IMG/VR virus record: IMGVR_UViG_2585427773_000007
Length of the DNA: 25,384 bases
Strand: one strand, 5' to 3'
Source: a virus
Lineage: Duplodnaviria > Heunggongvirae > Uroviricota > Caudoviricetes
The notes under the pieces were generated by a model that did not search any database, was not told the origin of the DNA, and saw only the letters and a list, made by a program, of their open reading frames with translations. Position numbers and translations under genes: made by a program. This document shows positions 6,918 through 25,384 of this stretch, in pieces (within the stretch, counting starts at the first letter, position 1; the number at the start of each line of letters is the position of its first letter).

Positions 6918-6934
6918 CCTTATCCTTCATCACT

Positions 6935-6959: not shown

Positions 6960-6972
6960 ACGGGATTTTTTT

Positions 6973-7998: not shown

Positions 7999-8000
7999 TC

Positions 8001-8025: not shown

Positions 8026-8039
8026 CTGTGGAGGAGTCC

Positions 8040-8435: not shown

Positions 8436-8446
8436 CGGGAGGCGCT

Positions 8447-8800: not shown

Positions 8801-8811
8801 AAGGGGGATGT

Positions 8812-9782: not shown

Positions 9783-9789
9783 GGACGAT

Positions 9790-10530: not shown

Positions 10531-10545
10531 TCCGGAGAGTCAGCG

Positions 10546-10968
10546 ATGTTCCTGAAAACCGAATCATTTGAATATAACGGTGTGAGCGTCACGCTTTCTG
10601 AACTGTCAGCCCTGCAGCGAATTGAGCATCTCGCCCTGCTGAAACGGCAGGCAGAACAGGCGGAGTCAGACAGCAACCGGAAGTTTACTGTGGAAGACGC
10701 CATCAGAACCGGCGCGTTTCTGGTGGCGATGTCCCTGTGGCATAACCATCCGCAGAAGACGCAGATGCCGTCCATGAATGAAGCCGTTAAACAGATTGAG
10801 CAGGAAGTGCTTACCACCTGGCCTACAGAGGCAATTTCTCATGCTGAAAACGTGGTGTACCGGCTGTCCGGTATGTATGAGTTTGTGGTGAATGATGCCC
10901 CTGAACAGGCAGAGGACGCCGGGCCTGCAGAGCCTGTTTCTGCGGGAAAGTGTTCGACGGTGAGCTGA
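10546..10968 (+). CDS. G: Tail assembly chaperone gpG, 140 aa
   Basis: MFLKTESFEYNGVSVTLSELSALQRIEHL... matches lambda G. Confidence 0.9.
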   Translation: MFLKTESFEYNGVSVTLSELSALQRIEHLALLKRQAEQAESDSNRKFTVEDAIRTGAFLVAMSLWHNHPQKTQMPSMNEAVKQIEQEVLTTWPTEAISHAENVVYRLSGMYEFVVNDAPEQAEDAGPAEPVSAGKCSTVS

Positions 10969-11384
10969 GTTTTGCCCTGAAACTGGCGCGCGAGATGGGG
11001 CGACCCGACTGGCGTGCCATGCTTGCCGGGATGTCATCCACGGAGTATGCCGACTGGCACCGCTTTTACAGTACCCATTATTTTCATGATGTTCTGCTGG
11101 ATATGCACTTTTCCGGGCTGACGTACACCGTGCTCAGCCTGTTTTTCAGCGATCCGGATATGCATCCGCTGGATTTCAGTTTGCTGAACCGGCGTGAGGC
11201 TGACGAAGAGCCTGAAGATGATGTGCTGATGCAGAAAGCGGCAGGGCTTGCCGGAGGCGTCCGCTTTGGCCCGGACGGGAATGAAGTTATCCCCGCTTCC
11301 CCGGATGTGGCGGACATGACGGAGGATGACGTAATGCTGATGACAGTATCAGAAGGGATCGCAGGAGGAGTCCGGTATGGCTGA
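10546..11384 (+). CDS. GT: Tail assembly chaperone gpGT, the -1 frameshift fusion product (G frame to 10950, then T frame from 10950)
   Basis: The T-frame ORF (10950-11384) has no plausible independent start or RBS and begins exactly at the slippery site, as in lambda. Confidence 0.78.
10944..10950 (+). other. Programmed -1 ribosomal frameshift slippery heptamer G_GGA_AAG that generates the G-T fusion
   Basis: GGGAAAG is in the zero frame of G as G GGA AAG, 6 codons before the G stop; the -1 frame continues open as the T ORF to 11384. Confidence 0.8.
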
Positions 11385-13938
11385 ACCGGTAGGCGATCTG
11401 GTCGTTGATTTGAGTCTGGATGCGGCCAGATTTGACGAGCAGATGGCCAGAGTCAGGCGTCATTTTTCCGGTACGGAAAGTGATGCGAAAAAAACAGCGG
11501 CAGTCGTTGAACAGTCGATGAACCGGCAGGCGCTGGCTGCACAGAAAGCGGGAATTTCCGTCGGGCAGTATAAAGCCGCCATGCGTATGCTGCCTGCGCA
11601 GTTCACTGACGTGGCCACGCAGCTTGCAGGCGGGCAAAGTCCGTGGCTGATCCTGCTGCAACAGGGGGGTCAGGTGAAGGACTCCTTCGGCGGGATGATC
11701 CCCATGTTCCGGGGGCTTGCCGGTGCGATCACCCTGCCGATGGTGGGGGCCACCTCGCTGGCGGTGGCGACCGGTGCGCTGGCGTATGCCTGGTATCAGG
11801 GCAACTCAACCCTGTCCGATTTCAACAAAACGCTGGTCCTTTCCGGCAATCAGGCCGGGCTGACGGCAGATCGTATGCTGGTCCTGTCCAGAGCCGGGCA
11901 GGCGGCAGGGCTGACGTTTAACCAGACCAGCGAGTCACTCAGCGCACTGGTTAAGGCGGGGGTAAGCGGTGAGGCTCAGATTGCGTCCATCAGCCAGAGT
12001 GTGGCGCGTTTCTCCTCTGCATCCGGCGTGGAGGTGGACAAGGTCGCTGAAGCCTTCGGGAAGCTGACCACTGACCCGACGTCGGGGCTGACGGCGATGG
12101 CGCGCCAGTTCCATAACGTGACGGCGGAGCAGATTGCGTATGTTGCTCAGTTGCAGCGTTCCGGCGATGAGGCCGGGGCATTGCAGGCAGCGAACGAGGC
12201 CGCAACGAAAGGGTTTGATGACCAGACCCGCCGCCTGAAAGAGAACATGGGCACGCTGGAGACCTGGGCAGACAGGACAGCGCGGGCATTCAAATCCATG
12301 TGGGATGCGGTGCTGGATATTGGTCGTCCTGATACCGCGCAGGAGATGTTGATTAAGGCAGAGGCTGCGTTTAAGAAAGCAGACGACATCTGGAATCTGC
12401 GCAAGGATGATTATTTTGTTAACGATGAAGCGCGGGCGCGTTACTGGGATGATCGTGAAAAGGCCCGTCTTGCGCTTGAAGCCGCCCGAAAGAAGGCTGA
12501 GCAGCAGAGTCAACAGGACAAAAATGCGCAGCAGCAGAGCGATACCGAAGCGTCACGGCTGAAATATACCGAAGAGGCACAGAAGGCTTACGAACGCCTG
12601 CAGACACCGCTGGAGAAATATACCGCCCGTCAGGAGGAACTGAATAAGGCACTGAAAGACGGGAAAATCCTGCAGGCAGATTACAACACGCTGATGGCGG
12701 CGGCGAAAAAGGATTATGAAGCGACGCTGAAAAAGCCGAAACAGTCCGGCGTGAAGGTGTCTGCGGGCGATCGTCAGGAAGACAGTGCTCATGCTGCCCT
12801 GCTGACGCTTCAGGCTGAACTCCGGACGCTGGAGAAGCATGCCGGAGCAAATGAGAAAATCAGCCAGCAGCGCCGGGATTTGTGGAAGGCGGAGAGTCAG
12901 TTCGCGGTACTGGAGGAGGCGGCGCAACGTCGCCAGCTGTCTGCACAGGAGAAATCCCTGCTGGCGCATAAAGATGAGACGCTGGAGTACAAACGCCAGC
13001 TGGCTGCACTTGGCGACAAGGTTACGTATCAGGAGCGCCTGAACGCGCTGGCGCAGCAGGCGGATAAATTCGCACAGCAGCAACGGGCAAAACGGGCCGC
13101 CATTGATGCGAAAAGCCGGGGGCTGACTGACCGGCAGGCAGAACGGGAAGCCACGGAACAGCGCCTGAAGGAACAGTATGGCGATAATCCGCTGGCGCTG
13201 AATAACGTCATGTCAGAGCAGAAAAAGACCTGGGCGGCTGAAGACCAGCTTCGCGGGAGCTGGATGGCAGGCCTGAAGTCCGGCTGGAGTGAGTGGGAAG
13301 AGAGCGCCACGGACAGTATGTCGCAGGTTAAAAGTGCAGCCACGCAGACCTTTGATGGTATTGCACAGAATATGGCGGCGATGCTGACCGGCAGTGAGCA
13401 GAACTGGCGCAGCTTCACCCGTTCCGTGCTGTCCATGATGACAGAAATTCTGCTTAAGCAGGCAATGGTGGGGATTGTCGGGAGTATCGGCAGCGCCATT
13501 GGCGGGGCTGTTGGTGGCGGCGCATCCGCGTCAGGCGGTACAGCCATTCAGGCCGCTGCGGCGAAATTCCATTTTGCGACCGGGGGATTTACGGGAACCG
13601 GCGGCAAATATGAGCCAGCGGGGATTGTTCACCGTGGTGAATTTGTCTTCACGAAGGAGGCAACCAGCCGGATTGGCGTGGGGAATCTTTACCGGCTGAT
13701 GCGCGGCTATGCCACCGGCGGTTATGTCGGTACACCGGGCAGCATGGCAGACAGCCGGTCGCAGGCGTCCGGGACGTTTGAGCAGAATAACCATGTGGTG
13801 ATTAACAACGACGGCACGAACGGGCAGATAGGTCCGGCTGCTCTGAAGGCGGTGTATGACATGGCCCGCAAGGGTGCCCGTGATGAAATTCAGACACAGA
13901 TGCGTGATGGTGGCCTGTTCTCCGGAGGTGGACGATGA
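11377..13938 (+). CDS. H: Tail tape measure protein gpH, 853 aa
   Basis: Identical length to lambda H; coiled-coil-rich centre and Gly-rich C-terminal region; overlaps the T stop and the M start. Confidence 0.93.
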   Translation: MAEPVGDLVVDLSLDAARFDEQMARVRRHFSGTESDAKKTAAVVEQSMNRQALAAQKAGISVGQYKAAMRMLPAQFTDVATQLAGGQSPWLILLQQGGQVKDSFGGMIPMFRGLAGAITLPMVGATSLAVATGALAYAWYQGNSTLSDFNKTLVLSGNQAGLTADRMLVLSRAGQAAGLTFNQTSESLSALVKAGVSGEAQIASISQSVARFSSASGVEVDKVAEAFGKLTTDPTSGLTAMARQFHNVTAEQIAYVAQLQRSGDEAGALQAANEAATKGFDDQTRRLKENMGTLETWADRTARAFKSMWDAVLDIGRPDTAQEMLIKAEAAFKKADDIWNLRKDDYFVNDEARARYWDDREKARLALEAARKKAEQQSQQDKNAQQQSDTEASRLKYTEEAQKAYERLQTPLEKYTARQEELNKALKDGKILQADYNTLMAAAKKDYEATLKKPKQSGVKVSAGDRQEDSAHAALLTLQAELRTLEKHAGANEKISQQRRDLWKAESQFAVLEEAAQRRQLSAQEKSLLAHKDETLEYKRQLAALGDKVTYQERLNALAQQADKFAQQQRAKRAAIDAKSRGLTDRQAEREATEQRLKEQYGDNPLALNNVMSEQKKTWAAEDQLRGSWMAGLKSGWSEWEESATDSMSQVKSAATQTFDGIAQNMAAMLTGSEQNWRSFTRSVLSMMTEILLKQAMVGIVGSIGSAIGGAVGGGASASGGTAIQAAAAKFHFATGGFTGTGGKYEPAGIVHRGEFVFTKEATSRIGVGNLYRLMRGYATGGYVGTPGSMADSRSQASGTFEQNNHVVINNDGTNGQIGPAALKAVYDMARKGARDEIQTQMRDGGLFSGGGR

Positions 13939-14264
13939 AGACCTTCCGCTGGAAAGTGAAACCCGGTATGGATGTGGCTTCGGTCCCTTCTGTAAGAAAG
14001 GTGCGCTTTGGTGATGGCTATTCTCAGCGAGCGCCTGCCGGGCTGAATGCCAACCTGAAAACGTACAGCGTGACGCTTTCTGTCCCCCGTGAGGAGGCCA
14101 CGGTACTGGAGTCGTTTCTGGAAGAGCACGGGGGCTGGAAATCCTTTCTGTGGACGCCGCCTTATGAGTGGCGGCAGATAAAGGTGACCTGCGCAAAATG
14201 GTCGTCGCGGGTCAGTATGCTGCGTGTTGAGTTCAGCGCAGAGTTTGAACAGGTGGTGAACTGA
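13935..14264 (+). CDS. M: Tail tip assembly protein gpM, 109 aa
   Basis: Length, position and sequence match lambda M. Confidence 0.9.
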   Translation: MKTFRWKVKPGMDVASVPSVRKVRFGDGYSQRAPAGLNANLKTYSVTLSVPREEATVLESFLEEHGGWKSFLWTPPYEWRQIKVTCAKWSSRVSMLRVEFSAEFEQVVN

Positions 14265-14962
14265 TGCAGGATATCCGGCAGGAAACACTGAATGAATGCA
14301 CCCGTGCGGAGCAGTCGGCCAGCGTGGTGCTCTGGGAAATCGACCTGACAGAGGTCGGTGGAGAACGTTATTTTTTCTGTAATGAGCAGAACGAAAAAGG
14401 TGAGCCGGTCACCTGGCAGGGGCGACAGTATCAGCCGTATCCCATTCAGGGGAGCGGTTTCGAACTGAATGGCAAAGGCACCAGTACGCGCCCCACGCTG
14501 ACGGTTTCTAACCTGTACGGTATGGTCACCGGGATGGCGGAAGATCTGCAGAGTCTGGTCGGCGGAACGGTGGTCCGGCGTAAGGTTTACGCCCGTTTTC
14601 TGGATGCGGTGAACTTCGTCAACGGAAACAGTTACGCCGATCCGGAGCAGGAGGTGATCAGCCGCTGGCGCATTGAGCAGTGCAGCGAACTGAGCGCGGT
14701 GAGTGCCTCCTTTGTACTGTCCACGCCGACGGAAACGGATGGCGCTGTTTTTCCGGGACGTATCATGCTGGCCAACACCTGCACCTGGACCTATCGCGGT
14801 GATGAGTGCGGTTATAGCGGTCCGGCTGTCGCGGATGAATATGACCAGCCGACGTCCGATATCACGAAGGATAAATGCAGCAAATGCCTGAGCGGTTGTA
14901 AGTTCCGCAATAACGTCGGCAACTTTGGCGGCTTCCTTTCCATTAACAAACTTTCGCAGTAA
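14264..14962 (+). CDS. L: Tail tip protein gpL, 232 aa, with a C-terminal Cys cluster
   Basis: Length and sequence match lambda L; C-terminal CxxC...C cluster (CTWTYRGDECGY...CSKCLSGC). Confidence 0.9.
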   Translation: MQDIRQETLNECTRAEQSASVVLWEIDLTEVGGERYFFCNEQNEKGEPVTWQGRQYQPYPIQGSGFELNGKGTSTRPTLTVSNLYGMVTGMAEDLQSLVGGTVVRRKVYARFLDAVNFVNGNSYADPEQEVISRWRIEQCSELSAVSASFVLSTPTETDGAVFPGRIMLANTCTWTYRGDECGYSGPAVADEYDQPTSDITKDKCSKCLSGCKFRNNVGNFGGFLSINKLSQ

Positions 14963-14967
14963 ATCCC

Positions 14968-15711
14968 ATGACACAGACAGAATCAGCGATTCTGGCGCAC
15001 GCCCGGCGATGTGCGCCAGCGGAGTCGTGCGGCTTCGTGGTAAGCACGCCGGAGGGGGAAAGATATTTTCCCTGCGTGAATATCTCCGGTGAGCCGGAGG
15101 CGTATTTCCGTATGTCGCCGGAAGACTGGCTGCAGGCAGAAATGCAGGGTGAGATTGTGGCGCTGGTCCACAGCCACCCCGGTGGTCTGCCCTGGCTGAG
15201 TGAGGCCGACCGGCGGCTGCAGGTGCAGAGTGATTTGCCGTGGTGGCTGGTCTGCCGGGGGACGATTCATAAGTTCCGCTGTGTGCCGCATCTCACCGGG
15301 CGGCGCTTTGAACACGGGGTGACGGACTGTTACACGCTGTTCCGGGATGCTTATCATCTGGCGGGGATTGAGATGCCGGATTTTCATCGCGAGGATGACT
15401 GGTGGCGTCACGGTCAGAATCTCTATCTGGATAATCTGGAGGCCACAGGGCTGTATCAGGTGCCGTTGTCAGCGGCACAACCGGGCGATGTGCTGCTGTG
15501 CTGTTTTGGTTCATCGGTGCCGAATCATGCCGCCATTTACTGTGGTGATGGCGAGCTGCTGCACCATATTCCTGAACAACTGAGCAAACGAGAGAGGTAT
15601 ACCGACAAATGGCAGCGACGCACACACTCCCTCTGGCGTCACCGGGAATGGCACGCATCTGCCTTTACGGGGATTTACAACGATTTGGCCGCCGCATCGA
15701 CCTTCGTGTGA
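14968..15711 (+). CDS. K: Tail tip assembly protein gpK, full 247-aa ORF with JAMM/MPN+ and NlpC/P60 motifs (the classical 199-aa lambda K would start at ATG 15112)
   Basis: HSHPGGLPWLSEAD gives H-x-H-x7-S-x2-D (nt 15169-15210) with a candidate catalytic Glu 49 residues upstream; downstream Cys/His/His residues (DCYTLF, HAAIY, LLHH) consistent with an NlpC/P60 triad. Confidence 0.82.
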   Translation: MTQTESAILAHARRCAPAESCGFVVSTPEGERYFPCVNISGEPEAYFRMSPEDWLQAEMQGEIVALVHSHPGGLPWLSEADRRLQVQSDLPWWLVCRGTIHKFRCVPHLTGRRFEHGVTDCYTLFRDAYHLAGIEMPDFHREDDWWRHGQNLYLDNLEATGLYQVPLSAAQPGDVLLCCFGSSVPNHAAIYCGDGELLHHIPEQLSKRERYTDKWQRRTHSLWRHREWHASAFTGIYNDLAAASTFV

Positions 15712-16280
15712 AAACGGGGGCTGAAGCCATTCGGGCGCTGGCCACACAGCTCCCGGCGTTTCGTCAGAAACTGAGCGACGGCTGGTATCAGGTACGGATT
15801 GCCGGGCAGGATGTCAGCACGTCCGGATTAACGGCGCAGTTACATGAGACTCTGCCTGATGGCGCTGTGATTCATATTGTTCCCAGAGTCGCCGGGGCCA
15901 AGTCAGGTGGCGTATTCCAGATTGTCCTGGGAGCAGCCGCCATTGCCGGATCATTCTTTACCGCCGGAGCCACCCTTACAGCATGGGGGGCAGCCATTGT
16001 GGCCGGTGGTATGACCGGCATCCTGTTTTCTCTCGGTGCCAGTATGGTGCTCGGTGGTGTGGCGCAGATGCTGGCACCGAAAGCCAGGACGCCCACGGCA
16101 GCAAGTACAGATAACGGAAAACAGAACACCTATTTCTCCTCCCTGGATAACATGGTTGCCCAGGGCAATGTTCTGCCTGTTCTGTACGGTGAAATGCGCG
16201 TGGGGTCACGCGTGGTTTCTCAGGAGATCAGCACGGCAGACGAAGGGGATGGTGGTCAGGTTGTGGTGATTGGTCGCTGA
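15609..16280 (+). CDS. I: Tail tip assembly protein gpI, 223 aa
   Basis: MAATHTLPLASPGMARICLYGDLQRFGRR... matches lambda I; 103-nt out-of-frame overlap with the K 3' end. Confidence 0.9.
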   Translation: MAATHTLPLASPGMARICLYGDLQRFGRRIDLRVKTGAEAIRALATQLPAFRQKLSDGWYQVRIAGQDVSTSGLTAQLHETLPDGAVIHIVPRVAGAKSGGVFQIVLGAAAIAGSFFTAGATLTAWGAAIVAGGMTGILFSLGASMVLGGVAQMLAPKARTPTAASTDNGKQNTYFSSLDNMVAQGNVLPVLYGEMRVGSRVVSQEISTADEGDGGQVVVIGR

Positions 16281-16298
16281 TGCAAAATGTTTTATGTG

Positions 16299-16320
16299 AA
16301 ACCGCCTGCGGGCGGTTTTA
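16299..16320 (+). terminator. Hairpin plus T-run between I and J
   Basis: AAACCGCC-TGCG-GGCGGTTTTA, read directly from the sequence. Confidence 0.4.
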
Positions 16321-16340
16321 TCGTTTATGGAGCGTGAGGA

Positions 16341-19300
16341 ATGGGTAAAGGCAGCAGTAAGGGGCATACCCCGCGCGAAGCGAAGGACAACCTGAAGTCC
16401 ACGCAGCTGCTGAGTGTGATCGATGCCATCAGCGAAGGGCCGGTTGAAGGTCCGGTGGACGGATTAAAAAGCGTGCTGCTGAACAGTACGCCGGTGCTGG
16501 ACAGTGAGGGGAATACCAATATATCCGGCGTCACGGTGGTGTTCCGGGCCGGTGAGCAGGAGCAGACACCGCCGGAGGGATTTGAATCCTCCGGCTCCGA
16601 GACGGTGCTGGGTACAGAAGTGAAATATGACACGCCGATCACCCGGACCATCACGTCGGCAAACATTGACCGTCTGCGTTTTACTTTCGGTGTACAGGCA
16701 CTGGTGGAAACCACCTCAAAGGGGGACAGGAATCCATCGGAAGTCCGCCTGCTGGTTCAGATACAGCGTAATGGTGGCTGGGTGACGGAAAAAGACATCA
16801 CCATTAAGGGTAAAACCACCTCACAGTATCTGGCCTCGGTGGTGGTGGATAACCTGCCGCCGCGCCCGTTCAATATCCGGATGCGCAGGATGACGCCGGA
16901 CAGCACCACAGACCAGCTGCAGAACAAAACGCTCTGGTCGTCATACACCGAAATTATCGATGTGAAACAGTGCTACCCGAACACGGCACTGATCGGCGTG
17001 CAGGTGGACTCGGAGCAGTTCGGCAGCCAGCAGGTGAGCCGTAATTATCATCTTCGCGGGCGCATTCTGCAGGTGCCGTCGAACTATAACCCGCAGACGC
17101 GGCAATACAGTGGTATCTGGGACGGAACGTTTAAACCAGCATACAGCAACAACATGGCCTGGTGTCTGTGGGATATGCTGACCCACCCGCGCTACGGCAT
17201 GGGAAAACGTCTTGGTGCGGCGGATGTGGATAAATGGGCGCTGTATGTCATCGGCCAGTACTGCGACCAGTCAGTGCCGGACGGCTTTGGCGGCACGGAG
17301 CCGCGCATCACCTGTAATGCGTACCTGACCACACAGCGCAAGGCGTGGGATGTGCTCAGTGATTTCTGCTCGGCGATGCGCTGTATGCCGGTATGGAACG
17401 GGCAGACGCTGACGTTCGTGCAGGACCGACCGTCGGATAAGGTGTGGGCCTATAACCGCAGTAATGTGGTGATGCCGGATGATGGCGCGCCGTTCCGCTA
17501 CAGTTTCAGCGCCCTGAAAGACCGCCATAATGCCGTTGAGGTGAACTGGATTGACCCGAACAACGGCTGGGAGACGGCGACAGAGCTTGTTGAAGATACG
17601 CAGGCCATTGCCCGTTACGGTCGTAACGTCACGAAGATGGATGCCTTTGGCTGTACCAGCCGGGGGCAGGCGCACCGCGCCGGGCTGTGGCTGATTAAAA
17701 CGGAACTGCTGGAAACGCAGACCGTGGACTTCAGCGTGGGTGCCGAAGGGCTTCGCCATGTGCCGGGGGATGTCATTGAAATCTGCGATGATGACTATGC
17801 GGGTATCAGCACCGGCGGGCGCGTGCTGGCGGGGAACAGCCAGACCCGGACGCTGACGCTCGACCGTGAAATCACGCTGCCATCCTCCGGTACCACGCTG
17901 ATAAGCCTGGTTGACGGTCAGGGTAATCCGGTCAGCGTGGAGGTCCAGTCCGTCACCGACGGCGTGAAGGTAAAAGTTAGCCGTGTTCCTGACGGCGTTG
18001 CCGGATACAGCGTGTGGGGGCTGAAGCTGCCGACGCTGCGCCAGCGCCTGTTCCGCTGCGTGAGTATCCGTGAGAACGACGACGGTATGTATGCCATCAC
18101 CGCCGTGCAGCATGTACCGGAAAAAGAGGCCATCGTGGATAACGGGGCGCACTTTGACGGCGACCAGAGCGGCACGGTGAATGGTGTCACGCCGCCAGCG
18201 GTGCAGCACCTGACTGCCGAAGTCACCGCAGGCAGCGGGGAATATCAGGTGCTGGCGCGCTGGGACACGCCGAAGGTGGTGAAGGGCGTGAGCTTCCTGC
18301 TCCGTCTGACCGTAACAGCGGATGACGGCAGTGAGCGGCTGGTCAGCACGGCCCGGACGACGGAAACCACATACCGCTTCACGCAACTGGCGCTGGGGAA
18401 CTACAGGCTGACAGTCCGGGCGGTAAATGCGTGGGGGCAGCAGGGCGATCCGGCGTCGGTATCGTTCCGGATTGCCGCACCGGCAGCACCGTCGAAGATT
18501 GAGCTGACACCGGGCTATTTTCAGATAACCGCCACGCCGCATCTTGCGGTTTATGATCCGACGGTACAGTTTGAGTTCTGGTTCTCGGAAAAGCGGATTG
18601 CGGATATCAGGCAGGTTGAAACCAGCGCGCGTTATCTTGGTACGGCACTGTACTGGATAGCCGCCAGTATCAATATCAAACCGGGCCATGATTATTACTT
18701 TTATATCCGCAGTGTGAACACCGTTGGCAAATCGGCATTCGTGGAGGCTGTCGGTCGGGCGAGCGATGATGCGGAAGGTTACCTGGATTTTTTCAAAGGC
18801 GAGATAACCGAATCCCATCTTGGCAAGAAGCTGCTGGAAAAAGTCGAGCTGACGGAGGATAACGCCAGCAGACTGGAGGAGTTTTCGAAAGAGTGGAAAG
18901 ACGCCAACGATAAATGGAATGCCATGTGGGGCGTCAAAATTGAGCAGACCGAAGACGGCAAACATTATGTCGCGGGTATTGGCCTCAGTATGGAGGACAC
19001 GGAGGAAGGCAAACTGAGTCAGTTTCTGGTTGCAGCAGACAGGATTGCGATGATTAATCCTGCGAATGGCAACACAAAGCCGATGTTTGTTGGTCAGGGC
19101 GATCAGATATTCATGAATGAAGTGTTCCTGAAACGCCTGACGGCCCCCACCATTACCAGCGGCGGTAATCCTCCGGCATTTTCCCTGACATCAGACGGGA
19201 GACTGACGGCGAAAAATGCGGATATCAGTGGCAGTGTGAATGCGAACTCAGGAACGCTCAACAATGTCACGATTAACCAGAACTGTACGATTAAGGGCAT

Positions 19301-19754
19301 GCTGGAGGCGACCCAGGTCAGAGGGGATTTCGTTAAAGCTGTATCAAAAGCCTTCCCGAAAAAAGTCGGTACGTGGGGTAACACGGAAACACCAAACGGT
19401 ACGGTTACAGTCACCATCAGCGATGATCATAACTTTGACCGCCAGATTATTATTCCGCCCATTATTTTTAACGGTATAGCGTATGACGATCCGGGGAGCG
19501 GAAATAACCCAGGAGGCACGCGATACACGGGTTATGGTTTTGAAGTTCGCAAAAACGGCGTATTAATCGCATCCAGAGAAACTAAAGGGGCCATTCCCGG
19601 TAGTTACAGTGCAGTTATTGATATGCCGAGTGGCAGGGGAAGCGTCACTCTGGAGTTTAAGATTTTCCAGAAAGGCAATCAGGGGGCAGGCAATATCACC
19701 GACTGTACGGTGATTGTGACCAAAAAAGCCGCTTCCGGCATCAGTATTCGTTGA
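16341..19754 (+). CDS. J: Central tail fibre / host specificity protein gpJ, 1137 aa
   Basis: Size, position and N-terminus match lambda J; GAGGA RBS 6 nt upstream. Confidence 0.93.
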
Positions 19755-19772
19755 AATATTTATAACCCCAAT

Positions 19773-19800
19773 AAAGGGCGTCAGGAATGACGCCTTTTTT
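19773..19800 (+). terminator. Rho-independent terminator after J
   Basis: AAAGGGCGTCA-GGAA-TGACGCC followed by TTTTTT. Confidence 0.6.
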
Positions 19801-19824
19801 ATTGCAGAAAAGCGAGAGGTAATT

Positions 19825-20424
19825 ATGCGTAAAGTTTGTGCAGCAATTTTGTCCGCAGCCATTTGTCTGGCCGTATCCGGTGCGCCTGCATGGGCGTCTG
19901 AACATCAGTCCACGCTGAGCGCGGGGTATCTTCATGCCTCGACGAACGTCCCCGGCAGTGATGATCTGAACGGGATTAACGTGAAATACCGTTATGAGTT
20001 TACGGACACACTGGGGCTGGTGACGTCATTCAGCTATGCAGGAGACAAGAATCGCCAGCTGACCCGTTACAGCGATACCCGCTGGCATGAAGATTCCGTT
20101 CGTAACCGCTGGTTCAGCGTAATGGCGGGGCCGTCTGTGCGCGTGAATGAATGGTTCAGCGCGTATGCGATGGCGGGTGTAGCTTACAGCCGTGTGTCGA
20201 CTTTCTCCGGGGATTATCTTCGCGTAACTGACAACAAGGGGAAAACGCACGATGTGCTGACCGGAAGTGATGACGGTCGCCACAGCAACACGTCTCTGGC
20301 GTGGGGGGCTGGCGTGCAGTTTAACCCGACCGAATCCGTGGCCATTGATATTGCTTATGAAGGCTCCGGCAGTGGTGACTGGCGCACTGACGGTTTCATC
20401 GTGGGTGTCGGTTATAAATTCTGA
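19825..20424 (+). CDS. lom: Lom outer-membrane beta-barrel protein (Ail/Lom/PagC family), 199 aa with signal peptide
   Basis: N-terminal signal peptide (MRKVCAAILSAAICLAVSGAPAWA), C-terminal aromatic residue (...GVGYKF) and alternating beta-strand pattern; lambda lom position between J and stf. Confidence 0.88.
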   Translation: MRKVCAAILSAAICLAVSGAPAWASEHQSTLSAGYLHASTNVPGSDDLNGINVKYRYEFTDTLGLVTSFSYAGDKNRQLTRYSDTRWHEDSVRNRWFSVMAGPSVRVNEWFSAYAMAGVAYSRVSTFSGDYLRVTDNKGKTHDVLTGSDDGRHSNTSLAWGAGVQFNPTESVAIDIAYEGSGSGDWRTDGFIVGVGYKF

Positions 20425-20450
20425 TTAGCCAGGTAACACAGTGTTATGAC

Positions 20451-20477
20451 AGCCCGCCGGTTCAGGCGGGCTTTTTT
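20451..20477 (+). terminator. Rho-independent terminator after lom
   Basis: AGCCCGCC-GGTTCAG-GCGGGCT followed by TTTTTT. Confidence 0.6.
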
Positions 20478-20488
20478 GTGGGGTGAAT

Positions 20489-23326
20489 ATGGCAGTAAAG
20501 ATTTCAGGTGTACTGAAAGACGGCACAGGAAAACCGGTACAGAACTGCACAATCCAGCTGAAAGCAAAACGTAACAGCACCACGGTGGTGGTGAACACGC
20601 TGGCCTCAGAAAATCCGGATGAAGCCGGGCGTTACAGCATGGACGTTGAGTACGGGCAGTACAGCGTTATTCTGTTGGTGGAGGGATTCCCGCCGTCACA
20701 TGCCGGGACCATCACCGTGTATGAAGATTCCCGGCCCGGTACGCTGAATGATTTTCTCGGTGCCATGACGGAGGATGATGCCCGTCCGGAGGCACTGCGC
20801 CGTTTTGAGCTGATGGTGGAAGAGGTGGCGCGTAACGCGTCCGCGGTGGCACAGAACACGGCAGCCGCGAAGAAGTCAGCCAGCGATGCCAGCACATCAG
20901 CCCGTGAGGCGGCAACCCATGCGACTGATGCTGCAGGCTCAGCACGCGCAGCCAGCACGTCAGCCGGACAGGCCGCGTCGTCGGCTCAGTCAGCGTCTTC
21001 CAGCGCAGGAACGGCATCGACAAAGGCCCGTGAAGCAGCAAAAAGTGCTGCTGCTGCAGAGTCCTCAAAAAGCGCGGCAACTACCAGTGCCGGTGCGGCG
21101 AAAACGTCAGAAACGAATGCGGCAGCGTCACAACAATCAGCAGCCACTTCTGCATCCGCCGCGACCACGAAGGCGTCAGAAGCAGCCACCTCAGCCCGGG
21201 ATGCGGCGGCCTCAAAAGAGGCAGCGAAATCATCAGAAACGAACGCATCATCAAGCGCCAGTAGTGCCGCTTCCTCGGCAACGGCGGCAGGCAATTCCGC
21301 GAAGGCGGCAAAGACGTCTGAGACAAACGCCAGGTCTTCTGAAACGGCAGCGGGACAGAGCGCCTCGGCTGCGGCAGGCTCAAAAACAGCGGCTGCGTCG
21401 TCTGCCAGCGCCGCGTCAACAAGTGCCGGGCAGGCCTCAGCCAGTGCCACCGCCGCCGGAAAATCGGCAGAAAGCGCCGCATCATCCGCTTCAACAGCCA
21501 CAACGAAGGCTGGCGAAGCCACTGAGCAGGCCAGCGCAGCAGCGAGGTCAGCTTCCGCAGCGAAGACATCCGAAACGAACGCGAAAGCGTCGGAAACCAG
21601 CGCAGAATCCTCAAAAACGGCTGCCGCATCGTCAGCCAGTTCGGCGTCGTCATCGGCCTCATCGGCGTCTGCTTCAAAAGATGAGGCGACCAGACAAGCG
21701 TCAGCAGCGAAGGGCAGCGCCACGACGGCATCCACGAAGGCAACAGAGGCTGCTGGCAGTGCGACGGCGGCATCTCAGAGCAAAGTTGCTGCTGAATCCG
21801 CGGCAACGCGTGCCGAAACAGCGGCAAAACGGGCAGAGGATATTGCTGATGCCGTATCTCTGGAAGATGCGAGTACGACGAAAAAAGGTGTGGTTCAGCT
21901 CAGTAGCGCCACTAACAGCCCGTCTGAAACGCTGGCTGCGACACCAAAAGCGGTTAAGGCGGTAATGGATGAAACGAACAAGAAAGCGCCCTTAAATAGT
22001 CCTGCACTGACCGGAACGCCAACAACGCCAACTGCGCCAAAAGGTACTAATAATACTCAGATCGCAAGTACGGCTTATGTGATGGCCGCGATTGCCGCCC
22101 TTGTAGACTCGTCGCCTGACGCACTGAATACGCTGAACGAGTTAGCGGCGGCGCTGGGCAACGACCCGAATTTTGCGACCACCATGACTAACGCGCTTGC
22201 GGGTAAGCAACCGAAAGATGCCACCCTGACGGCGCTGGCCGGGCTTGCTACTGCGGCAGACAGGTTTCCGTATTTTACGGGGAATGATGTCGCCAGCCTG
22301 GCAACCCTGACAAAAGTCGGGCGGGATATTCTTGCGAAATCGACCGTTGCTGCCGTTATCGAATACCTCGGTTTACAGGAAACGGTAAATCAGGCTTCTG
22401 GCGCATTACAGAAAAACCAGAACGGCGCAGATATTCCGGGAAAAGATACCTTCACCAAAAACATTGGTGCCTGCCGCGCATATAGCGCATGGCTGAATAT
22501 TGGTGGCGATAGTCAGGTCTGGACAACTGCGCAATTTATTTCGTGGCTGGAGAGTCAGGGGGCATTTAACCATCCTTACTGGATGTGCAAAGGCTCATGG
22601 GCTTATGCAAATAATAAGGTTATTACAGATACAGGTTGCGGAAATATTTGTCTTGCAGGTGCTGTGGTGGAAGTTATTGGCACTCGCGGCGCAATGACCA
22701 TACGCGTTACTACGCCGAGCACGTCCAGCGGTGGCGGAATTACTAACGCTCAATTCACTTATATTAATCATGGTGATGCTTACGCTCCTGGCTGGCGACG
22801 AGACTACAACACGAAAAACCAGCAGCCTGCATTTGCTTTAGGGCAAACAGGACGCAGGGTCGCAAATGATAAAGCTGTTGGCTGGAACTGGAATAGCGGT
22901 GTTTATGATGCAGATATCAGTGGTGCATCGACATTAATCCTCCACTTCAATATGAATGCGGGGAGTTGCCCTGCTGTACAGTTCCGCGTGAATTACAGGA
23001 ACGGCGGGATTTTTTATCGTTCAGCGCGTGATGGTTATGGCTTTGAAGCTAACTGGTCAGAGTTTTACACCACAACACGCAAACCCTCTGCGGGGGATGT
23101 TGGTGCATATACGCAGGCAGAATGTAACTCAAGGTTTATTACAGGTATTCGCCTTGGCGGTCTGTCATCTGTTCAGACATGGAAAGGCCCCGGCTGGTCT
23201 GACAGGTCAGGTTATGTCGTTACGGGTTCAGTTAACGGAAACCGTGCTGAATTAATTGATACAACTCAGGCAAGGCCAATTCAGTATTGCATTAATGGGA
23301 CGTGGTATAACGCGGGGAGTATTTAA
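20489..23326 (+). CDS. stf: Side tail fibre protein Stf, 945 aa from ATG 20489: lambda-Stf-like N-terminus with an Ala/Ser-rich tract, then a Mu S / P1 S-like variable C-terminal domain
   Basis: MAVKISGVLKDGTGKPVQNCTIQLKA... matches the lambda Stf N-terminus; a gix-like site sits in-frame at 22356-22383; the C-terminus ends ...INGTWYNAGSI, mirrored by the inverted alternative exon. Confidence 0.88.
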   Translation: MAVKISGVLKDGTGKPVQNCTIQLKAKRNSTTVVVNTLASENPDEAGRYSMDVEYGQYSVILLVEGFPPSHAGTITVYEDSRPGTLNDFLGAMTEDDARPEALRRFELMVEEVARNASAVAQNTAAAKKSASDASTSAREAATHATDAAGSARAASTSAGQAASSAQSASSSAGTASTKAREAAKSAAAAESSKSAATTSAGAAKTSETNAAASQQSAATSASAATTKASEAATSARDAAASKEAAKSSETNASSSASSAASSATAAGNSAKAAKTSETNARSSETAAGQSASAAAGSKTAAASSASAASTSAGQASASATAAGKSAESAASSASTATTKAGEATEQASAAARSASAAKTSETNAKASETSAESSKTAAASSASSASSSASSASASKDEATRQASAAKGSATTASTKATEAAGSATAASQSKVAAESAATRAETAAKRAEDIADAVSLEDASTTKKGVVQLSSATNSPSETLAATPKAVKAVMDETNKKAPLNSPALTGTPTTPTAPKGTNNTQIASTAYVMAAIAALVDSSPDALNTLNELAAALGNDPNFATTMTNALAGKQPKDATLTALAGLATAADRFPYFTGNDVASLATLTKVGRDILAKSTVAAVIEYLGLQETVNQASGALQKNQNGADIPGKDTFTKNIGACRAYSAWLNIGGDSQVWTTAQFISWLESQGAFNHPYWMCKGSWAYANNKVITDTGCGNICLAGAVVEVIGTRGAMTIRVTTPSTSSGGGITNAQFTYINHGDAYAPGWRRDYNTKNQQPAFALGQTGRRVANDKAVGWNWNSGVYDADISGASTLILHFNMNAGSCPAVQFRVNYRNGGIFYRSARDGYGFEANWSEFYTTTRKPSAGDVGAYTQAECNSRFITGIRLGGLSSVQTWKGPGWSDRSGYVVTGSVNGNRAELIDTTQARPIQYCINGTWYNAGSI
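20850..21850 (+). repeat. Low-complexity Ala/Ser/Thr-rich coding repeat tract within stf (iterated ...AAKTSETNA... / ...SASSAS... units)
   Basis: GC-rich GCN/TCN codon repeats visible in the translation; they leave two other frames stop-free (spurious ORFs 20886-21965 +, 20986-21735 -, 21081-21827 -). Confidence 0.8.
22356..22383 (+). other. Candidate gix/pix-type recombination (crossover) site for a serine DNA invertase, embedded in stf at the constant/variable junction
   Basis: TTATCGAATACCTCGGTTTACAGGAAAC differs at only about 2 of 28 positions from the Mu gixL sequence as I recall it, has imperfect dyad symmetry around the central TC, and encodes the ...IEYLGLQE... junction. Confidence 0.6.
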
Positions 23327-23328
23327 CG

Positions 23329-23862
23329 ATGATGCACTTAAAAAACATTACTGCTGGCAACCCTAAAACAAAAGAGCAATACCAGCTAACAAAGCAATTT
23401 AACATCAAATGGCTTTATTCAGATGATGGAAAAAACTGGTATGAGGAACAAAAGAATTTCCAGCCAGACACTTTGAAAATGGTCTATGACCATAACGGCG
23501 TTATTATTTGTATTGAAAAGGATGTTTCAGCAATTAATCCAGAGGGTGCAAGCGTCGTTGAATTACCTGATATTACAGCAAATCGCCGGGCTGATATTTC
23601 GGGGAAATGGATGTTCAAAGATGGCGTAGTGATAAAGCGAACTTATACCGAGGAAGAGCAGAGGCAACAAGCGGAAAATGAAAAGCAAAGCCTGTTGCAA
23701 CTTGTCAGGGATAAAACCCAGCTATGGGACTCACAGCTACGGCTGGGCATCATTTCCGACGAGAATAAACAAAAATTAACCGAGTGGATGCTCTATGCGC
23801 AGAAAGTCGAATCTACAGACACTTCCGGCCTGCCAGTAACGTTTCCCGAACAACCAGAATGA
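23329..23862 (+). CDS. tfa: Tail fibre assembly protein Tfa (Mu U-like), 177 aa
   Basis: Starts 3 nt after the stf stop; about 55% identical to the inverted paralogue at 23891-24418 (shared [28 protein letters not shown] motifs). Confidence 0.85.
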   Translation: MMHLKNITAGNPKTKEQYQLTKQFNIKWLYSDDGKNWYEEQKNFQPDTLKMVYDHNGVIICIEKDVSAINPEGASVVELPDITANRRADISGKWMFKDGVVIKRTYTEEEQRQQAENEKQSLLQLVRDKTQLWDSQLRLGIISDENKQKLTEWMLYAQKVESTDTSGLPVTFPEQPE

Positions 23863-23865
23863 GAG

Positions 23866-23892
23866 AAGGCCCGCTATCGGGCCTTAATTTTT
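23866..23892. terminator. Hairpin between the convergent tfa genes, with a T-run on the + strand
   Basis: AAGGCCCG-CTAT-CGGGCCTT followed by AATTTTT. Confidence 0.5.
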
Positions 23893-24418
23893 ACTCTGGT
23901 TTTTGTGGCCATTCAGGATTTGCCGTATCCACACGGCTGACCAGAACACTGTAGCGTTCCCATGCTTCCAGTCGTGTGCGTTCCTCGTCTGTTGCCATAT
24001 TCAGCCTGACAGCGCGTTCCAGCGGTTGGATGACTGATTCAGCTTCGGAAAGCAATGCGGCCTTTTGTGATTCGGCCTGTTGTTGTTGCTCGTCTGCCGT
24101 ATAAATCCGTTTAACCACAGCTCCGTCCCTAAACATCCACTTACCGGAATCATCAGCGCAGCGGTTGGCTGTAATATCTGGAACCTCAACGACGCTATAA
24201 CCTTCAGGGTTAAGCGTGGAGGCATCTTTGGTGATGGCGACAATAATATTATTTGCATCGTAAACAATCTTTATTGTGTCTGGCTGAAAGTTTTTCACTT
24301 CCTCATACCAGTTTTTTCCGTCTTCGGACCATAACCAGATAACATCAAAATTCTTTGTTAGCTGATATTGTTCTTTTGTTTTTGGATTTCCAGACTTAAT
24401 ATTTTTTAAATGCTGCAT
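23891..24418 (-). CDS. Alternative tail fibre assembly protein Tfa-prime (Mu U-prime-like), 175 aa, inverted orientation
   Basis: Paralogue of the + strand tfa in convergent orientation; positioned directly downstream (on the - strand) of the inverted alternative fibre exon. Confidence 0.85.
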
Positions 24419-24421
24419 AAA

Positions 24422-25384
24422 TTACACCTGTACGACGTTATACCATGTGCCATTGATGTATTTTTGTATTGGTCTGAATACTGCCGGATCATCGCCATCA
24501 ACTGCACCGATAATGCCAAGCCCCGTAATTGCATGACCTGATTTCTCATACATCACGCCTTTTTGCATAGTCTGAACAACACGTGTACCAAGTCGGACAT
24601 CTCTCACATAACGTGAGTCAAAATTACCATAATTGCCGGGAATAACTTGCGCACCGCAAAGCCAGTTGCCATTGTTGTCCATGTACGCCTGACCATCGGT
24701 GCCATTGGCTGTCCTTGAGTTATTAATCATGTAGATGCCAAATTGCTTATTCCCCAGTCCACCAATCATAAATTTGCGATCAGCGTGGTCCTGACGAAGT
24801 AATGCCTGCGCACCATCGGTGGATACCGCATTGCGTCCCAAAATAACATTCTGGTCACGCATATGAATCCACATGCCGGTACTACTGTTAATTGCAAAAC
24901 GGTTTGCAAATATATCCCCTGTAACATCAAGACCATGCCCCATGCTTATCCGACCAGTTCTGAGATTAAGCGTAAAGGGGCGTAGTGGCCCTATATCACC
25001 ATTTTCTCCCTCATTCTCTCGTGTAGGGATGATATGCAGGCATTCTTCAGAACGACGAAAAATAGCACCAAAAGATGAATTAAATATCCTCAGTGCATTG
25101 ACTGTCGATATTTTTACTTCACTGCTGAAAAGGGCTTTAACAAGGACAGACAAAGCATCCCATTTAAGAGTCATCAGGTCTTTTGTTGTGGTGCTCTGGC
25201 GGCTTCTCCATTTGAAATATTCATTGCCGTTGTCGCCTGTTTCAAACCACATGTATGAATCAGTGTCGCTGTCGGCATTATTTTTAAAACCAATCTTTGC
25301 CCAGTCAGTATTTCTAATCCAGGCAAGGATTGAGTCGTTTTCAAAAGTAAGCCCACCGGACAAGGTATCGCCATTCTTTTGCAC
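24422..25384 (-). CDS. Alternative side-tail-fibre variable C-terminal exon (Sv-prime-like), partial; runs off the 3' window edge and has no start codon in this orientation
   Basis: At least 320 codons on the - strand ending ...PIQKYINGTWYNVVQV, parallel to the stf C-terminus ...PIQYCINGTWYNAGSI. The M at the window edge is an artefact (the codon is GTG). Confidence 0.78.
   Translation of the reverse strand: MQKNGDTLSGGLTFENDSILAWIRNTDWAKIGFKNNADSDTDSYMWFETGDNGNEYFKWRSRQSTTTKDLMTLKWDALSVLVKALFSSEVKISTVNALRIFNSSFGAIFRRSEECLHIIPTRENEGENGDIGPLRPFTLNLRTGRISMGHGLDVTGDIFANRFAINSSTGMWIHMRDQNVILGRNAVSTDGAQALLRQDHADRKFMIGGLGNKQFGIYMINNSRTANGTDGQAYMDNNGNWLCGAQVIPGNYGNFDSRYVRDVRLGTRVVQTMQKGVMYEKSGHAITGLGIIGAVDGDDPAVFRPIQKYINGTWYNVVQV

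What the first reader, a model, noticed from the sequence alone, without database searches (positions are those of the whole stretch)
20489..23326. Mosaic side tail fibre: lambda Stf-like N-terminus joined to a Mu/P1 S-like C-terminus
The first roughly 625 residues track lambda Stf (N-terminal domain, Ala/Ser-rich tract, region up to ...VIEYLG), after which the sequence switches to a Cys- and Trp-containing domain unlike lambda's His/Gly-rich distal fibre. The switch point coincides with the gix-like site, consistent with this junction being a hotspot for modular exchange between tail-fibre genes.
Basis: partly seen in the sequence, partly recalled or inferred. Interest (0 to 1): 0.45.

Follow-up and report, generated by a model that had tools for sequence, protein, structure and literature searches.

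The report
Lambda side fibre with switchable Mu tip
A lambda-type prophage tail-fibre gene whose receptor-binding end comes from phage Mu and lies on a flippable 3-kb DNA segment; this is a well-known way for phages to change host range, so the case is clear but ordinary.

Summary
The 945-aa protein (20489-23326) follows lambda Stf up to EYLG (residues 625-628). From residue 631 it is 95% identical to the phage Mu S' distal fibre, which has a solved structure (PDB 8JU3).

The breakpoint is more than an evolutionary seam. It is the left crossover site (gixL, 22356-22381) of a complete 3,053-bp Mu G-type invertible segment. That segment carries two distal-fibre-plus-chaperone cassettes and ends 25-50 bp beyond the window.

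Flipping it in silico fuses the same constant part in frame to the silent alternative tip, giving a 959-aa fibre. The segment's own invertase is cut to 64 codons and fused to a lambda tfa remnant.

Both orientations nevertheless occur in complete E. coli genomes, 42 as here and 21 flipped. Near-identical prophages carrying the same truncated invertase differ only by the inversion. At least one such genome (EC31) holds an intact invertase in a P2-like prophage. Inversion supplied in trans is therefore the likeliest mechanism.

All components are well known (Mu G/Gin, P1 C/Cin, mosaic tail fibres). This is a new member of a known kind, and interest is low to moderate.

The parts
20489..23326 (+). 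stf: 945-aa side tail fibre gene, in the orientation that expresses the Mu S'-type tip
   Evidence: ORF; RefSeq CDS WP_077763067.1 in a genome 100% identical over window 20000-25384; identity profile
20489..20890 (+). Lambda-type N-terminal domain that attaches the fibre to the tail (residues 1-134)
   Evidence: Pfam PF08400 phage_tail_N, E=1.2e-71, residues 1-134; 87-97% identical to lambda Stf over residues 1-120, falling to 60% in the 121-150 bin; PDB 9e7m 'Tail fiber protein', residues 1-94, E=1.2e-51
20831..21881 (+). Ala/Ser-rich shaft tract (residues ~115-464). Includes about 105 residues (~21389-21703) that lambda lacks
   Evidence: Proximal part is 27% Ala and 16% Ser; gap against lambda at residues ~301-405; no DNA tandem repeats found
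21882..22368 (+). Distal constant module (residues ~465-627). Shared with lambda Stf (76% aa) and with the H fibre genes of P2-like prophages (92-93% nt). Begins at the conserved KKGVVQLSSATNSPSETLAATPKAVK motif
   Evidence: (P2-like phages match from query position 1394 = window 21882); the motif also aligns to Mu S and S'
22356..22381 (+). gixL: left 26-bp crossover site TTATCGAATACC-TC-GGTTTACAGGAA. It lies in the codons for VIEYLGLQE. Lambda homology ends and Mu homology begins here
   Evidence: The partner site gixR lies at window-equivalent 25409-25434, outside the window, and was seen in L001 at 11410-11435. Both sites have the same central TC
22369..23326 (+). Sv': expressed variable distal fibre / receptor-binding domain, Mu S' type
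   Evidence: 95.4% aa identity to Mu S' and 86.3% to P1 Sv'; 96.9% to P7 Sv; PDB 8JU3 'Tail fiber protein S, Tail fiber protein S'', E=2e-220, residues 623-945
23329..23862 (+). Tail fibre assembly chaperone for the expressed tip (Mu U' type, 177 aa)
   Evidence: Pfam PF02413, E=2e-36; 97% identical to Mu U' and 95% to P1 U'
23891..24418 (-). Silent alternative chaperone (Mu/P1 U type, 175 aa)
   Evidence: Pfam PF02413, E=7e-38; 94% identical to Mu U and 97% to P1 U
24422..25384 (-). Silent alternative distal fibre (Sv). It has no start codon of its own and is open to the window edge. It continues 37 nt further to the centre of gixR
   Evidence: ORF; 70% identical to the Mu S variable part and 74% to P1 S; PDB 5YVQ Mu 'Tail fiber protein S', E=5e-140; in-silico inversion gives an in-frame 959-aa fibre

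Best explanation
The gene encodes the side tail fibre of a lambda/434-like prophage inserted next to the bio operon, at the position of the lambda attachment site. It is built from three modules:
- a lambda Stf N-terminal attachment domain plus Ala/Ser-rich shaft (residues 1 to ~464)
- a distal constant module shared with lambda Stf and with P2-like H fibres (~465-627)
- a receptor-binding tip of the Mu S' type (~629-945)

The seam between the second and third modules is gixL. This is the left crossover site of a complete 3,053-bp Mu G-type invertible segment (window 22369 to about 25421, ending just past the window). The segment holds two convergent cassettes: Sv' with a U'-type chaperone, expressed here, and a U-type chaperone with Sv, silent here. 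Inversion between gixL and gixR would fuse the same constant part in frame to the other tip and bring its own chaperone into the transcribed orientation. That would change which surface receptor the side fibres bind.

By analogy with Mu G(-), the tip expressed here should bind an LPS-core structure found on E. coli C, Shigella sonnei, Citrobacter and similar hosts.

The segment's own invertase is a 64-codon stump fused to the last ~76-100 bp of a lambda-type tfa gene. Inversion therefore cannot be self-catalysed. It most likely depends on a Gin/Pin/Cin-family invertase supplied in trans by another prophage, for example a P2-like one. The retained stump still carries the stretch that corresponds to the recombinational enhancer.

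Shown here: the mosaic, the exact breakpoint, both sites, intact frames in both orientations, the truncated invertase, both orientations in natural genomes with that truncation, and an intact invertase co-resident in at least one such genome.

Inferred: receptor specificity, catalysis in trans, enhancer function, and that the fibre is assembled on virions.
For: Mosaic and breakpoint.

The DNA alignment places the end of lambda homology at the centre of gix. The window reads TTATCGAATACCTCGG|TTTACAGGAA and lambda reads TTCTTGAATACCTTGG|GGCCGGTGAG.

The whole segment is collinear with the inverted Mu G segment at 87.5% nt identity and is followed by gin at 93%.

There is a 38-nt inverted repeat with 3,011 nt between the arms. 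The two 26-mers share an identical central TC.

In-silico inversion gives an uninterrupted 959-aa ORF.

The invertase is 195 nt (64 aa) and is annotated next to a tfa fragment. Five genomes examined carry the 195-nt stump, and the truncation junction is base-for-base identical in the three that were aligned. Columns 101-200 of that alignment, which correspond to the stretch of cin annotated as the P1 enhancer (nt 19-90), are 100% identical to Mu.

Population evidence:
- 42 genomes carry the window arrangement and 21 the flipped arrangement.
- A flipped locus is collinear with the in-silico flipped reference over 5,405 nt at 99.65%.
- Two constant-part haplotypes that differ by 5% each occur in both orientations. 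Strains 63-2 (as here) and ETEC6 (flipped) have 1,880/1,880 identical constant-part bases and 3 differences in the 3,053-nt segment. This implies at least two inversion events after the truncation.

Strain EC31 carries the flipped locus with the 64-aa stump, plus a P2-like prophage with an intact 199-aa recombinase. EC958 likewise has an orphan locus and an intact copy elsewhere.

Literature:
- Pin-family invertases of one prophage invert a segment in another (PMC12529663; bioRxiv 10.1101/2025.03.28.646004).
- An engineered lambda Stf N-terminus fused to a P2 fibre C-terminus is functional (PMC11338833). P2 H is 71% identical to this tip over 77% of its length.
- Mu G(-) host range is summarised in PMC4406740.
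Against: No invertase is encoded at the locus. The right-hand site and the stump lie outside the window and were read from a genome that is 100% identical over window 20000-25384.

Orientation polymorphism between genomes is indirect evidence. RecA-dependent exchange within the ~25 bp of identical repeat, or recombination with another prophage carrying a G-type segment, could also produce it.

The outer half of gixL differs from Mu's at 2 of 12 positions.

The window's own copy of the prophage has an IS66-family element in the large terminase gene. It may therefore no longer make particles.

Receptor specificity was not tested. The silent tip is only 70-74% identical to characterised Mu S and P1 S, so its target is uncertain.
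Confidence: 0.85

Rival explanations
1. Frozen relic. The Mu-type segment was captured once, the invertase was then lost, and the fibre tip is now fixed in each lineage. The two orientations seen among genomes would stem from old events, or from rare homologous or inter-prophage recombination, not from ongoing site-specific switching.
For: The invertase is truncated to 64 codons in every copy examined. The same scar is present in 536 of 5,426 genomes, so it is old. The window's copy has an IS66-family element in the terminase gene. No read-level evidence of within-culture heterogeneity is available.
Against: Strains 63-2 and ETEC6 are identical over 1,880 nt of constant part and differ at 3 of 3,053 segment bases, yet have opposite orientations. 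A second haplotype pair shows the same. The inversions are therefore recent, repeated, and later than the truncation. The breakpoints are exactly at the gix centres. All four cassette ORFs are intact. Intact invertases co-reside in the same chromosomes.
Confidence: 0.12
2. Host-domesticated switch. The orphan segment is kept by the bacterium, not by the phage. When flipped by another prophage's invertase it would yield a fibre protein that blocks adsorption of other phages, as reported for e14 StfE2 with PinQ.
For: A published precedent exists for trans inversion producing an anti-phage fibre chimera (PMC12529663). The truncated-invertase scar is widespread. The segment is more conserved (99.8-99.9%) than the adjoining constant part (93-95%).
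Against: The segment sits in a full late operon that is 97% identical to the functional phages 434 and lambda h434. In strain 101EVA the prophage appears complete. Ordinary phage function therefore explains its conservation. No expression or defence data exist, and e14's fibre genes are unrelated.
Confidence: 0.03
3. Assembly artefact: a false join between a lambdoid prophage and a Mu-, P1- or P2-like element at a shared repeat.
For: The join lies at a short repeated sequence that is present in several prophages per genome.
Against: The same in-frame join is present in 42 independently assembled complete genomes, and its flipped counterpart in 21. The flanks continue into lambda-type tfa remnants and host genes.
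Confidence: 0

Closest known systems
Phage Mu G segment with Gin invertase (genes S/U and S'/U')
   Same: Same 3-kb architecture and gene order, collinear at 87.5% nt identity. Protein identities: S' 95%, U' 97%, U 94%. The gix sites have the same central TC. The gin 5' end, including the stretch corresponding to the enhancer, is 93-100% identical.
   Different: The constant part is a 627-residue lambda Stf type on a siphovirus, not the ~170-residue Mu constant part on a contractile tail. The second tip is only 70% identical to Mu S. gin is truncated after codon 64 and fused to a lambda-type tfa remnant.
Phage P1 / P7 C segment with Cin invertase
   Same: Invertible distal fibre plus chaperone cassettes. 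P7 Sv is 96.9% identical to the expressed tip, P1 Sv' 86%, P1 U 97% and P1 U' 95%.
   Different: The P1 segment is 4.2 kb with longer variable parts. cin lies on the other side of the segment and is only 72% identical to the stump.
Ur-lambda Stf and Tfa (side tail fibres)
   Same: The N-terminal domain, the Ala/Ser-rich tract and the distal constant module up to EYLG are 60-97% identical. The gene position after J and lom is the same. The 3' end of a lambda-type tfa survives downstream at 93%.
   Different: Lambda has a His-rich distal part (OmpC binding, per PMC11338833) and a single tfa. It has no inversion system. At the equivalent position it keeps only the outer half of a gix-like site. 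The window's shaft is ~105 residues longer.
P2-like prophage H fibre genes with an invertible tip and intact invertase (e.g. E. coli O111:H8 and EC31 prophages; phages P88, 520873)
   Same: They share the last ~490 nt of the constant part (92-93%), the gix sites, the chaperone genes and the overall segment layout. They are the most likely donors of both the cassette and the trans-acting invertase.
   Different: They are myovirus baseplate fibres with a different N-terminus, and their invertase is intact (199 aa).
e14 P segment with PinE, inverted also by PinQ/PinR of other cryptic prophages
   Same: Site-specific inversion that swaps fibre C-termini in a defective E. coli prophage. There is documented action of an invertase from a different prophage (PMC12529663, PMC4272514). 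PinE is 77% identical to the 64-aa stump.
   Different: The fibre and chaperone genes of e14 show no detectable similarity to this Stf or its Tfa proteins. e14 keeps its own invertase.
Engineered lambda-P2 STF chimera (Brodel et al. 2024, PMC11338833)
   Same: A lambda Stf N-terminal part fused to the receptor-binding end of a myovirus fibre, retargeting the side fibres from OmpC to LPS. It was shown to be functional.
   Different: It is man-made, has a fixed tip and no inversion. P2 H is 71% identical to this tip over 77% of its length.

Membership tests
Lambda Stf-type side tail fibre (prophage tail fibre N-terminal family) | N-terminal phage_tail_N domain (PF08400) | tested here: met
   E=1.2e-71, 239 bits against a cut-off of 26.6, residues 1-134; 87-97% identical to lambda Stf over residues 1-120
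Lambda Stf-type side tail fibre (prophage tail fibre N-terminal family) | Gene position downstream of J and lom in a lambda-type late operon, followed by a tfa chaperone gene | tested here: met
   J at 16341-19754, Lom at 19825-20424, stf, then tfa; late region 97% identical to phage 434 / lambda h434
Lambda Stf-type side tail fibre (prophage tail fibre N-terminal family) | Lambda-type distal receptor-binding part | tested here: not met
   Mostly 13-23% identity in 30-residue bins (one bin 40%), or no alignment, beyond residue 631; composition differs
Mu S' / P1 Sv' distal tail fibre | Full-length sequence match to the variable S' part, including the C-terminal end | tested here: met
   95.4% over residues 623-945 against Mu S'; PDB 8JU3 residues 166-488, E=2e-220
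Mu S' / P1 Sv' distal tail fibre | Cognate U'-type assembly chaperone encoded immediately downstream | tested here: met
   ORF at 23329-23862, 97% identical to Mu U'; PF02413
Mu S' / P1 Sv' distal tail fibre | Binds the Mu G(-) receptor (LPS core of E. coli C, Citrobacter, S. sonnei and others) | not testable with these tools
   Inferred from 95% identity. Host range as stated in PMC4406740
Gin/Cin/Pin/Hin-type invertible segment | Two 26-bp crossover sites in inverted orientation with identical central dinucleotide | tested here: met
   gixL at 22356-22381. gixR at window-equivalent 25409-25434, read in L001. Both have central TC. 0 of 200 shuffles gave a match
Gin/Cin/Pin/Hin-type invertible segment | Constant 5' gene part outside the segment, with two alternative 3' parts and their chaperones in opposite orientation inside it, both fusing in frame | tested here: met
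Gin/Cin/Pin/Hin-type invertible segment | Adjacent intact serine invertase gene | tested here: not met
   Only codons 1-64 remain (95% identical to Mu Gin 1-64), fused to a tfa remnant. The same junction is present in the three loci aligned
Gin/Cin/Pin/Hin-type invertible segment | Cis-acting recombinational enhancer (Fis-binding; lies in the 5' part of the invertase gene in Mu and P1) | tested here: inconclusive
   The corresponding stretch is retained and is 100% identical to Mu over alignment columns 101-200. Its position is taken from the P1 annotation, cin nt 19-90. Function was not tested
Gin/Cin/Pin/Hin-type invertible segment | The segment is actually found in both orientations | tested here: met
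   42 versus 21 complete genomes. Near-identical pairs differ only by the inversion. Switching within one culture was not testable

The most novel reading that the evidence does not exclude
The segment is an 'orphan' host-range switch. A lambda-type phage has lost its own invertase but kept both crossover sites and the enhancer stretch. Its side-fibre specificity is now flipped only when a co-resident prophage (P2-like, e14-like or similar) supplies a Gin/Pin-family invertase. The same truncated-invertase scar is present in about 10% of complete E. coli genomes (536 of 5,426). This would make one prophage's host range routinely dependent on another prophage.
Probability: 0.5. Interest if true: 0.4.

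Novelty: new member of a known kind. Interest (0 to 1): 0.25.

Why it matters
The locus is a clean natural example of two textbook ideas working at the same 26 bp. One is modular exchange of tail-fibre parts between unrelated phages (siphovirus lambda, myoviruses Mu, P1 and P2). The other is programmed host-range switching by DNA inversion.

For annotation, it shows that the 'incomplete' fibre fragment and the 64-aa 'recombinase family protein' listed beside such genes belong to one functional unit.

For phage engineering, nature uses the EYLG position of lambda Stf as a fusion point for myovirus tips. This is close to what has been built artificially.

The one point that goes beyond routine is that the switch has lost its invertase yet evidently still flips. 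This implies cross-talk between prophages.

Tried and rejected
- Tandem repeats in the Ala/Ser tract. Tandem Repeats Finder and self-BLAST found none, so the extra ~105 residues are not a recent duplication.
There was no similarity at E<1e-3; only PinE matched the invertase stump.
It was not run, because PDB 8JU3 covers the domain at ~96% identity.
- A truncated terminase. I first thought the prophage lacked its terminase 5' end. That was wrong: the window's copy has an IS66-family insertion there, and strain 101EVA has the intact gene and a full early region.
- Locating the window's exact source genome. No complete genome in the collection has the same IS66/terminase junction in one piece.
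- An intact invertase in the strains that are 100% identical over window 20000-25384 (101EVA, STEC309). The tools cannot restrict a search to one genome. Co-residence was shown in EC31 and EC958 instead.
- Classical papers (Sandmeier et al. 1992; Mehta et al. 2004) were not held in the library. A search for 'GAGENS', the motif that follows the junction in lambda, found nothing relevant.
- The large protein-database searches, metagenome scans and fold searches were not used. The local comparisons were decisive.
Full report
CONTEXT

The window is the late region of a lambda-type prophage.
- Positions 2670-20488 are 97% identical to phage 434 and lambda h434, from the large terminase gene to lom.
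- The region 20000-25384 is 100% identical to three complete E. coli chromosomes.
- In one of them, strain 101EVA, the prophage lies next to ybhB-bioA, the position of the lambda attachment site. It has an apparently complete early, lysis and packaging region.
- The gene in question follows J (16341-19754) and lom (19825-20424).

THE OBSERVATION

The ORF at 20489-23326 encodes 945 residues.

Against lambda DNA, tblastn gives three matches:
- 80% identity for residues 1-352
- a gapped 59% match for residues 315-500
- 76% for residues 498-631, in the second lambda reading frame. This is expected, because lambda PaPa carries the known stf frameshift (my knowledge: Hendrix and Duda 1992).

I rebuilt the 774-aa Ur-lambda protein and computed identity in 30-residue bins.
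- Lambda similarity is 60-97% up to residue 300.
- It is absent for about 105 residues of extra Ala/Ser tract.
- It is 67-93% from residue 421 to 630.
- It is mostly 13-23% beyond 631, with one 30-residue bin at 40%.

The mirror-image profile against Mu S' is near zero upstream, apart from one conserved motif at 451-480, and 83-100% from 631 to the end. The refuting condition, uniform similarity to lambda, is not met.

WHAT THE DISTAL PART IS

Residues 623-945 are 95.4% identical to the Mu S' variable part, the form made in the G(-) orientation. They are 96.9% identical to P7 Sv and 86.3% to P1 Sv'. They match PDB 8JU3 ('Tail fiber protein S, Tail fiber protein S'') at E=2e-220 over chain residues 166-488. 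That made a structure prediction unnecessary. P2 H matches at 71% over 77% of the domain.

THE JUNCTION IS A RECOMBINATION SITE OF A COMPLETE INVERTIBLE SEGMENT

At 22356-22381 lies TTATCGAATACCTCGGTTTACAGGAA. It differs by one base from the pattern searched (position 6 left as N), or by two bases from Mu's own gix. No shuffle of the window gave a match.

In the identical genome, the partner site TTCCTGTAAACCGAGGTTTTAGATAA lies at window-equivalent 25409-25434, which is 25 bp past the window end. It forms a 38-nt inverted repeat with 3,011 nt between the arms. Both sites have the same central TC.

The 3,053 bp between the centres align end to end with the Mu G segment in inverted orientation at 87.5% identity, followed by gin at 93%. 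The contents are:

| Element | Window position | Closest relatives |
|---|---|---|
| Sv' (expressed tip) | 22369-23326 | Mu S' 95% |
| U'-type chaperone | 23329-23862 | Mu U' 97% |
| U-type chaperone | 23891-24418, minus strand | Mu U 94%, P1 U 97% |
| Silent Sv | 24422 to beyond 25384, minus strand | Mu S 70%, P1 S 74%; PDB 5YVQ E=5e-140 |

Flipping the segment in silico at the site centres gives an uninterrupted 959-aa fibre. It has the same 627-residue constant part, followed by the other chaperone gene.

The DNA alignment shows that lambda homology stops at the site centre. Lambda keeps an outer half-site (TTCTTGAATACCTTGG) and then diverges. G+C content falls from 0.55-0.62 to 0.42-0.48 across the segment, which fits a foreign origin.

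THE INVERTASE IS GONE BUT THE SEGMENT STILL FLIPS

Downstream of gixR only 64 codons of gin remain, 95% identical to Mu Gin residues 1-64. They are joined to about 76-100 bp of the 3' end of a lambda-type tfa gene (93% to lambda), and then to host DNA. A 64-residue stump lacks most of the catalytic domain and the DNA-binding domain (my knowledge of serine recombinases), so it cannot act as an invertase.

The stump does retain the stretch that corresponds to the recombinational enhancer. In P1 the enhancer is annotated at cin nt 19-90. The corresponding columns are 100% identical to Mu.

A 2-kb probe across the junction as it stands in the window finds 42 complete genomes. A probe built for the flipped arrangement finds 21, one of them at 100% identity. 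All five loci examined carry the truncated (192-195 nt) stump, and the truncation junction is base-for-base identical in the three that were aligned.

One flipped locus is collinear with the in-silico flipped reference over 5,405 nt at 99.65%.

A four-way comparison is the most telling.
- Constant-part haplotype A occurs in both orientations: 101EVA as in the window and UID2404240038 flipped, 10 differences in 1,880 nt.
- Haplotype B, 5% different from A, also occurs in both: 63-2 as in the window and ETEC6 flipped, 0 differences in 1,880 nt.
- The segment itself differs at only 2-6 of 3,053 positions among all five.

So at least two precise inversions happened after the invertase was lost.

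Strain EC31 carries the flipped locus with the stump. Two megabases away it carries a P2-like prophage with its own invertible fibre segment and an intact 199-aa recombinase. EC958 shows the same co-residence with a related orphan locus. This invertase type is full length in at least 641 of 5,426 genomes.

Cross-action of Pin-family invertases between prophages is documented (PMC12529663; bioRxiv 10.1101/2025.03.28.646004). Functional interchangeability of Gin, Cin, Pin and Hin is established knowledge that I recall from the 1980s literature and did not re-read here.

I therefore rate inversion in trans as the most likely mechanism. Catalysis itself is inferred, not shown.

MODULARITY

- The last 519 nt of the constant part occur in 1,003 genomes (at least 80% cover).
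- The Sv' part occurs in 334 genomes, on chromosomes and on P1/P7-like plasmids.
- They are joined as in the window in 42 genomes.
- The last ~490 nt of the constant part (from 21882) are also found at 92-93% in the H genes of P2-like prophages that have intact invertible segments.

The protein therefore has at least three modules. P2-like elements are plausible donors of the cassette.

The truncated-gin/tfa scar is present in 536 of 5,426 genomes and occurs with different segment contents, for example in ST131 strain EC958. No record in the phage collection carries this whole arrangement; the best covers 62% of the query.

LIKELY FUNCTION

By analogy with Ur-lambda Stf, which speeds adsorption through a secondary receptor (OmpC; PMC11338833), this fibre should give the lambda/434-type virion an LPS-directed secondary attachment. 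The expected specificity is that of Mu G(-): E. coli C, Shigella sonnei, Citrobacter freundii, Enterobacter, Erwinia (PMC4406740). Inversion would switch it to a Mu S/P1 S-like but diverged specificity.

An engineered lambda-P2 Stf chimera of the same design works (PMC11338833). Receptor binding here is inferred from sequence identity only.

COMPARISON AND NOVELTY

Every component is known:
- mosaic tail fibres shared among lambda, Mu, P1 and P2 (my knowledge: Haggard-Ljungquist et al. 1992; Sandmeier 1994)
- G/C/P-type inversion systems
- lambdoid phages with an invertase and two fibre genes (LLS, PMC12315714)
- invertases acting in trans

The particular combination, a lambda/434 virion module with a Mu G-type cassette in the G(-) state and a truncated gin, is not represented among deposited phage genomes. 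I did not find it described in the papers I could search. It is a new member of a known kind.

The main addition is that the C-terminus is a programmed alternative, not only a historical mosaic.

CAVEATS

- The right-hand site and the invertase stump lie outside the window and were read from a genome that is 100% identical over window 20000-25384.
- The window's own prophage copy has an IS66-family insertion in the terminase gene and may be defective.
- Orientation differences between genomes do not prove switching within a strain.

Noticed in passing
window 1-2669 (minus strand) and 2670-3474: An IS66-family element interrupts the large terminase gene about 1,120 nt into the gene. Its ORFs are a 523-aa DDE transposase, a 115-aa TnpB and a 225-aa TnpA, and the window starts inside the element. 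Only the gpA endonuclease part follows it. Strain 101EVA has the intact gene, so the window's copy of the prophage is probably defective in packaging. No complete genome in the collection has this exact junction in one piece.
   Followed up: partly
window 2670-20488: The head and tail genes are 97% identical to phage 434 and lambda h434. The central fibre J is therefore the 434 type and not lambda's LamB-binding type. From my own knowledge, phage 434 uses OmpC.
   Followed up: partly
window 18838-18965: The region near the C-terminal end of J differs from strain 101EVA, including an 84-nt length difference (J is 1,137 aa here and 1,165 aa there). The flanks on either side are 98-99.6% identical. 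This suggests a second small exchange in a receptor-binding gene.
   Followed up: no
L001 11490-11816 (window-equivalent about 25489-25815, outside the window): The 64-codon invertase stump fused to a lambda-type tfa 3' remnant is a shared scar. A 251-nt probe across it is covered at least 80% in 536 of 5,426 complete E. coli genomes. These include ST131 strain EC958, where the invertible segment has different contents.
   Followed up: partly
window 22369-25384 compared with 20489-22368, in loci L001, L005, L006, L011, L013: The invertible segment is 99.8-99.9% identical among prophages whose adjoining constant fibre part differs by 5-7%. Either the cassette has spread recently between prophage lineages, or the shaft evolves much faster than the tips.
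   Followed up: partly
L002 2290-2330 (lambda 21189-21229): Lambda's own stf keeps a recognisable outer half of a gix-like site (TTCTTGAATACCTTGG) at the position where this gene has the full site, but no inner half. Lambda's fibre may descend from, or have recombined with, an invertible ancestor at this point.
   Followed up: partly
window 21389-21703: About 105 extra residues of Ala/Ser-rich shaft relative to lambda Stf, with no detectable tandem repeat at DNA level. Strain EC31 has a further 132-nt length difference in the same tract.
   Followed up: partly
window 22500-25000: G+C content drops to 0.42-0.48, against 0.55-0.62 in the rest of the late operon. The drop coincides with the Mu-type segment.
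   Followed up: no
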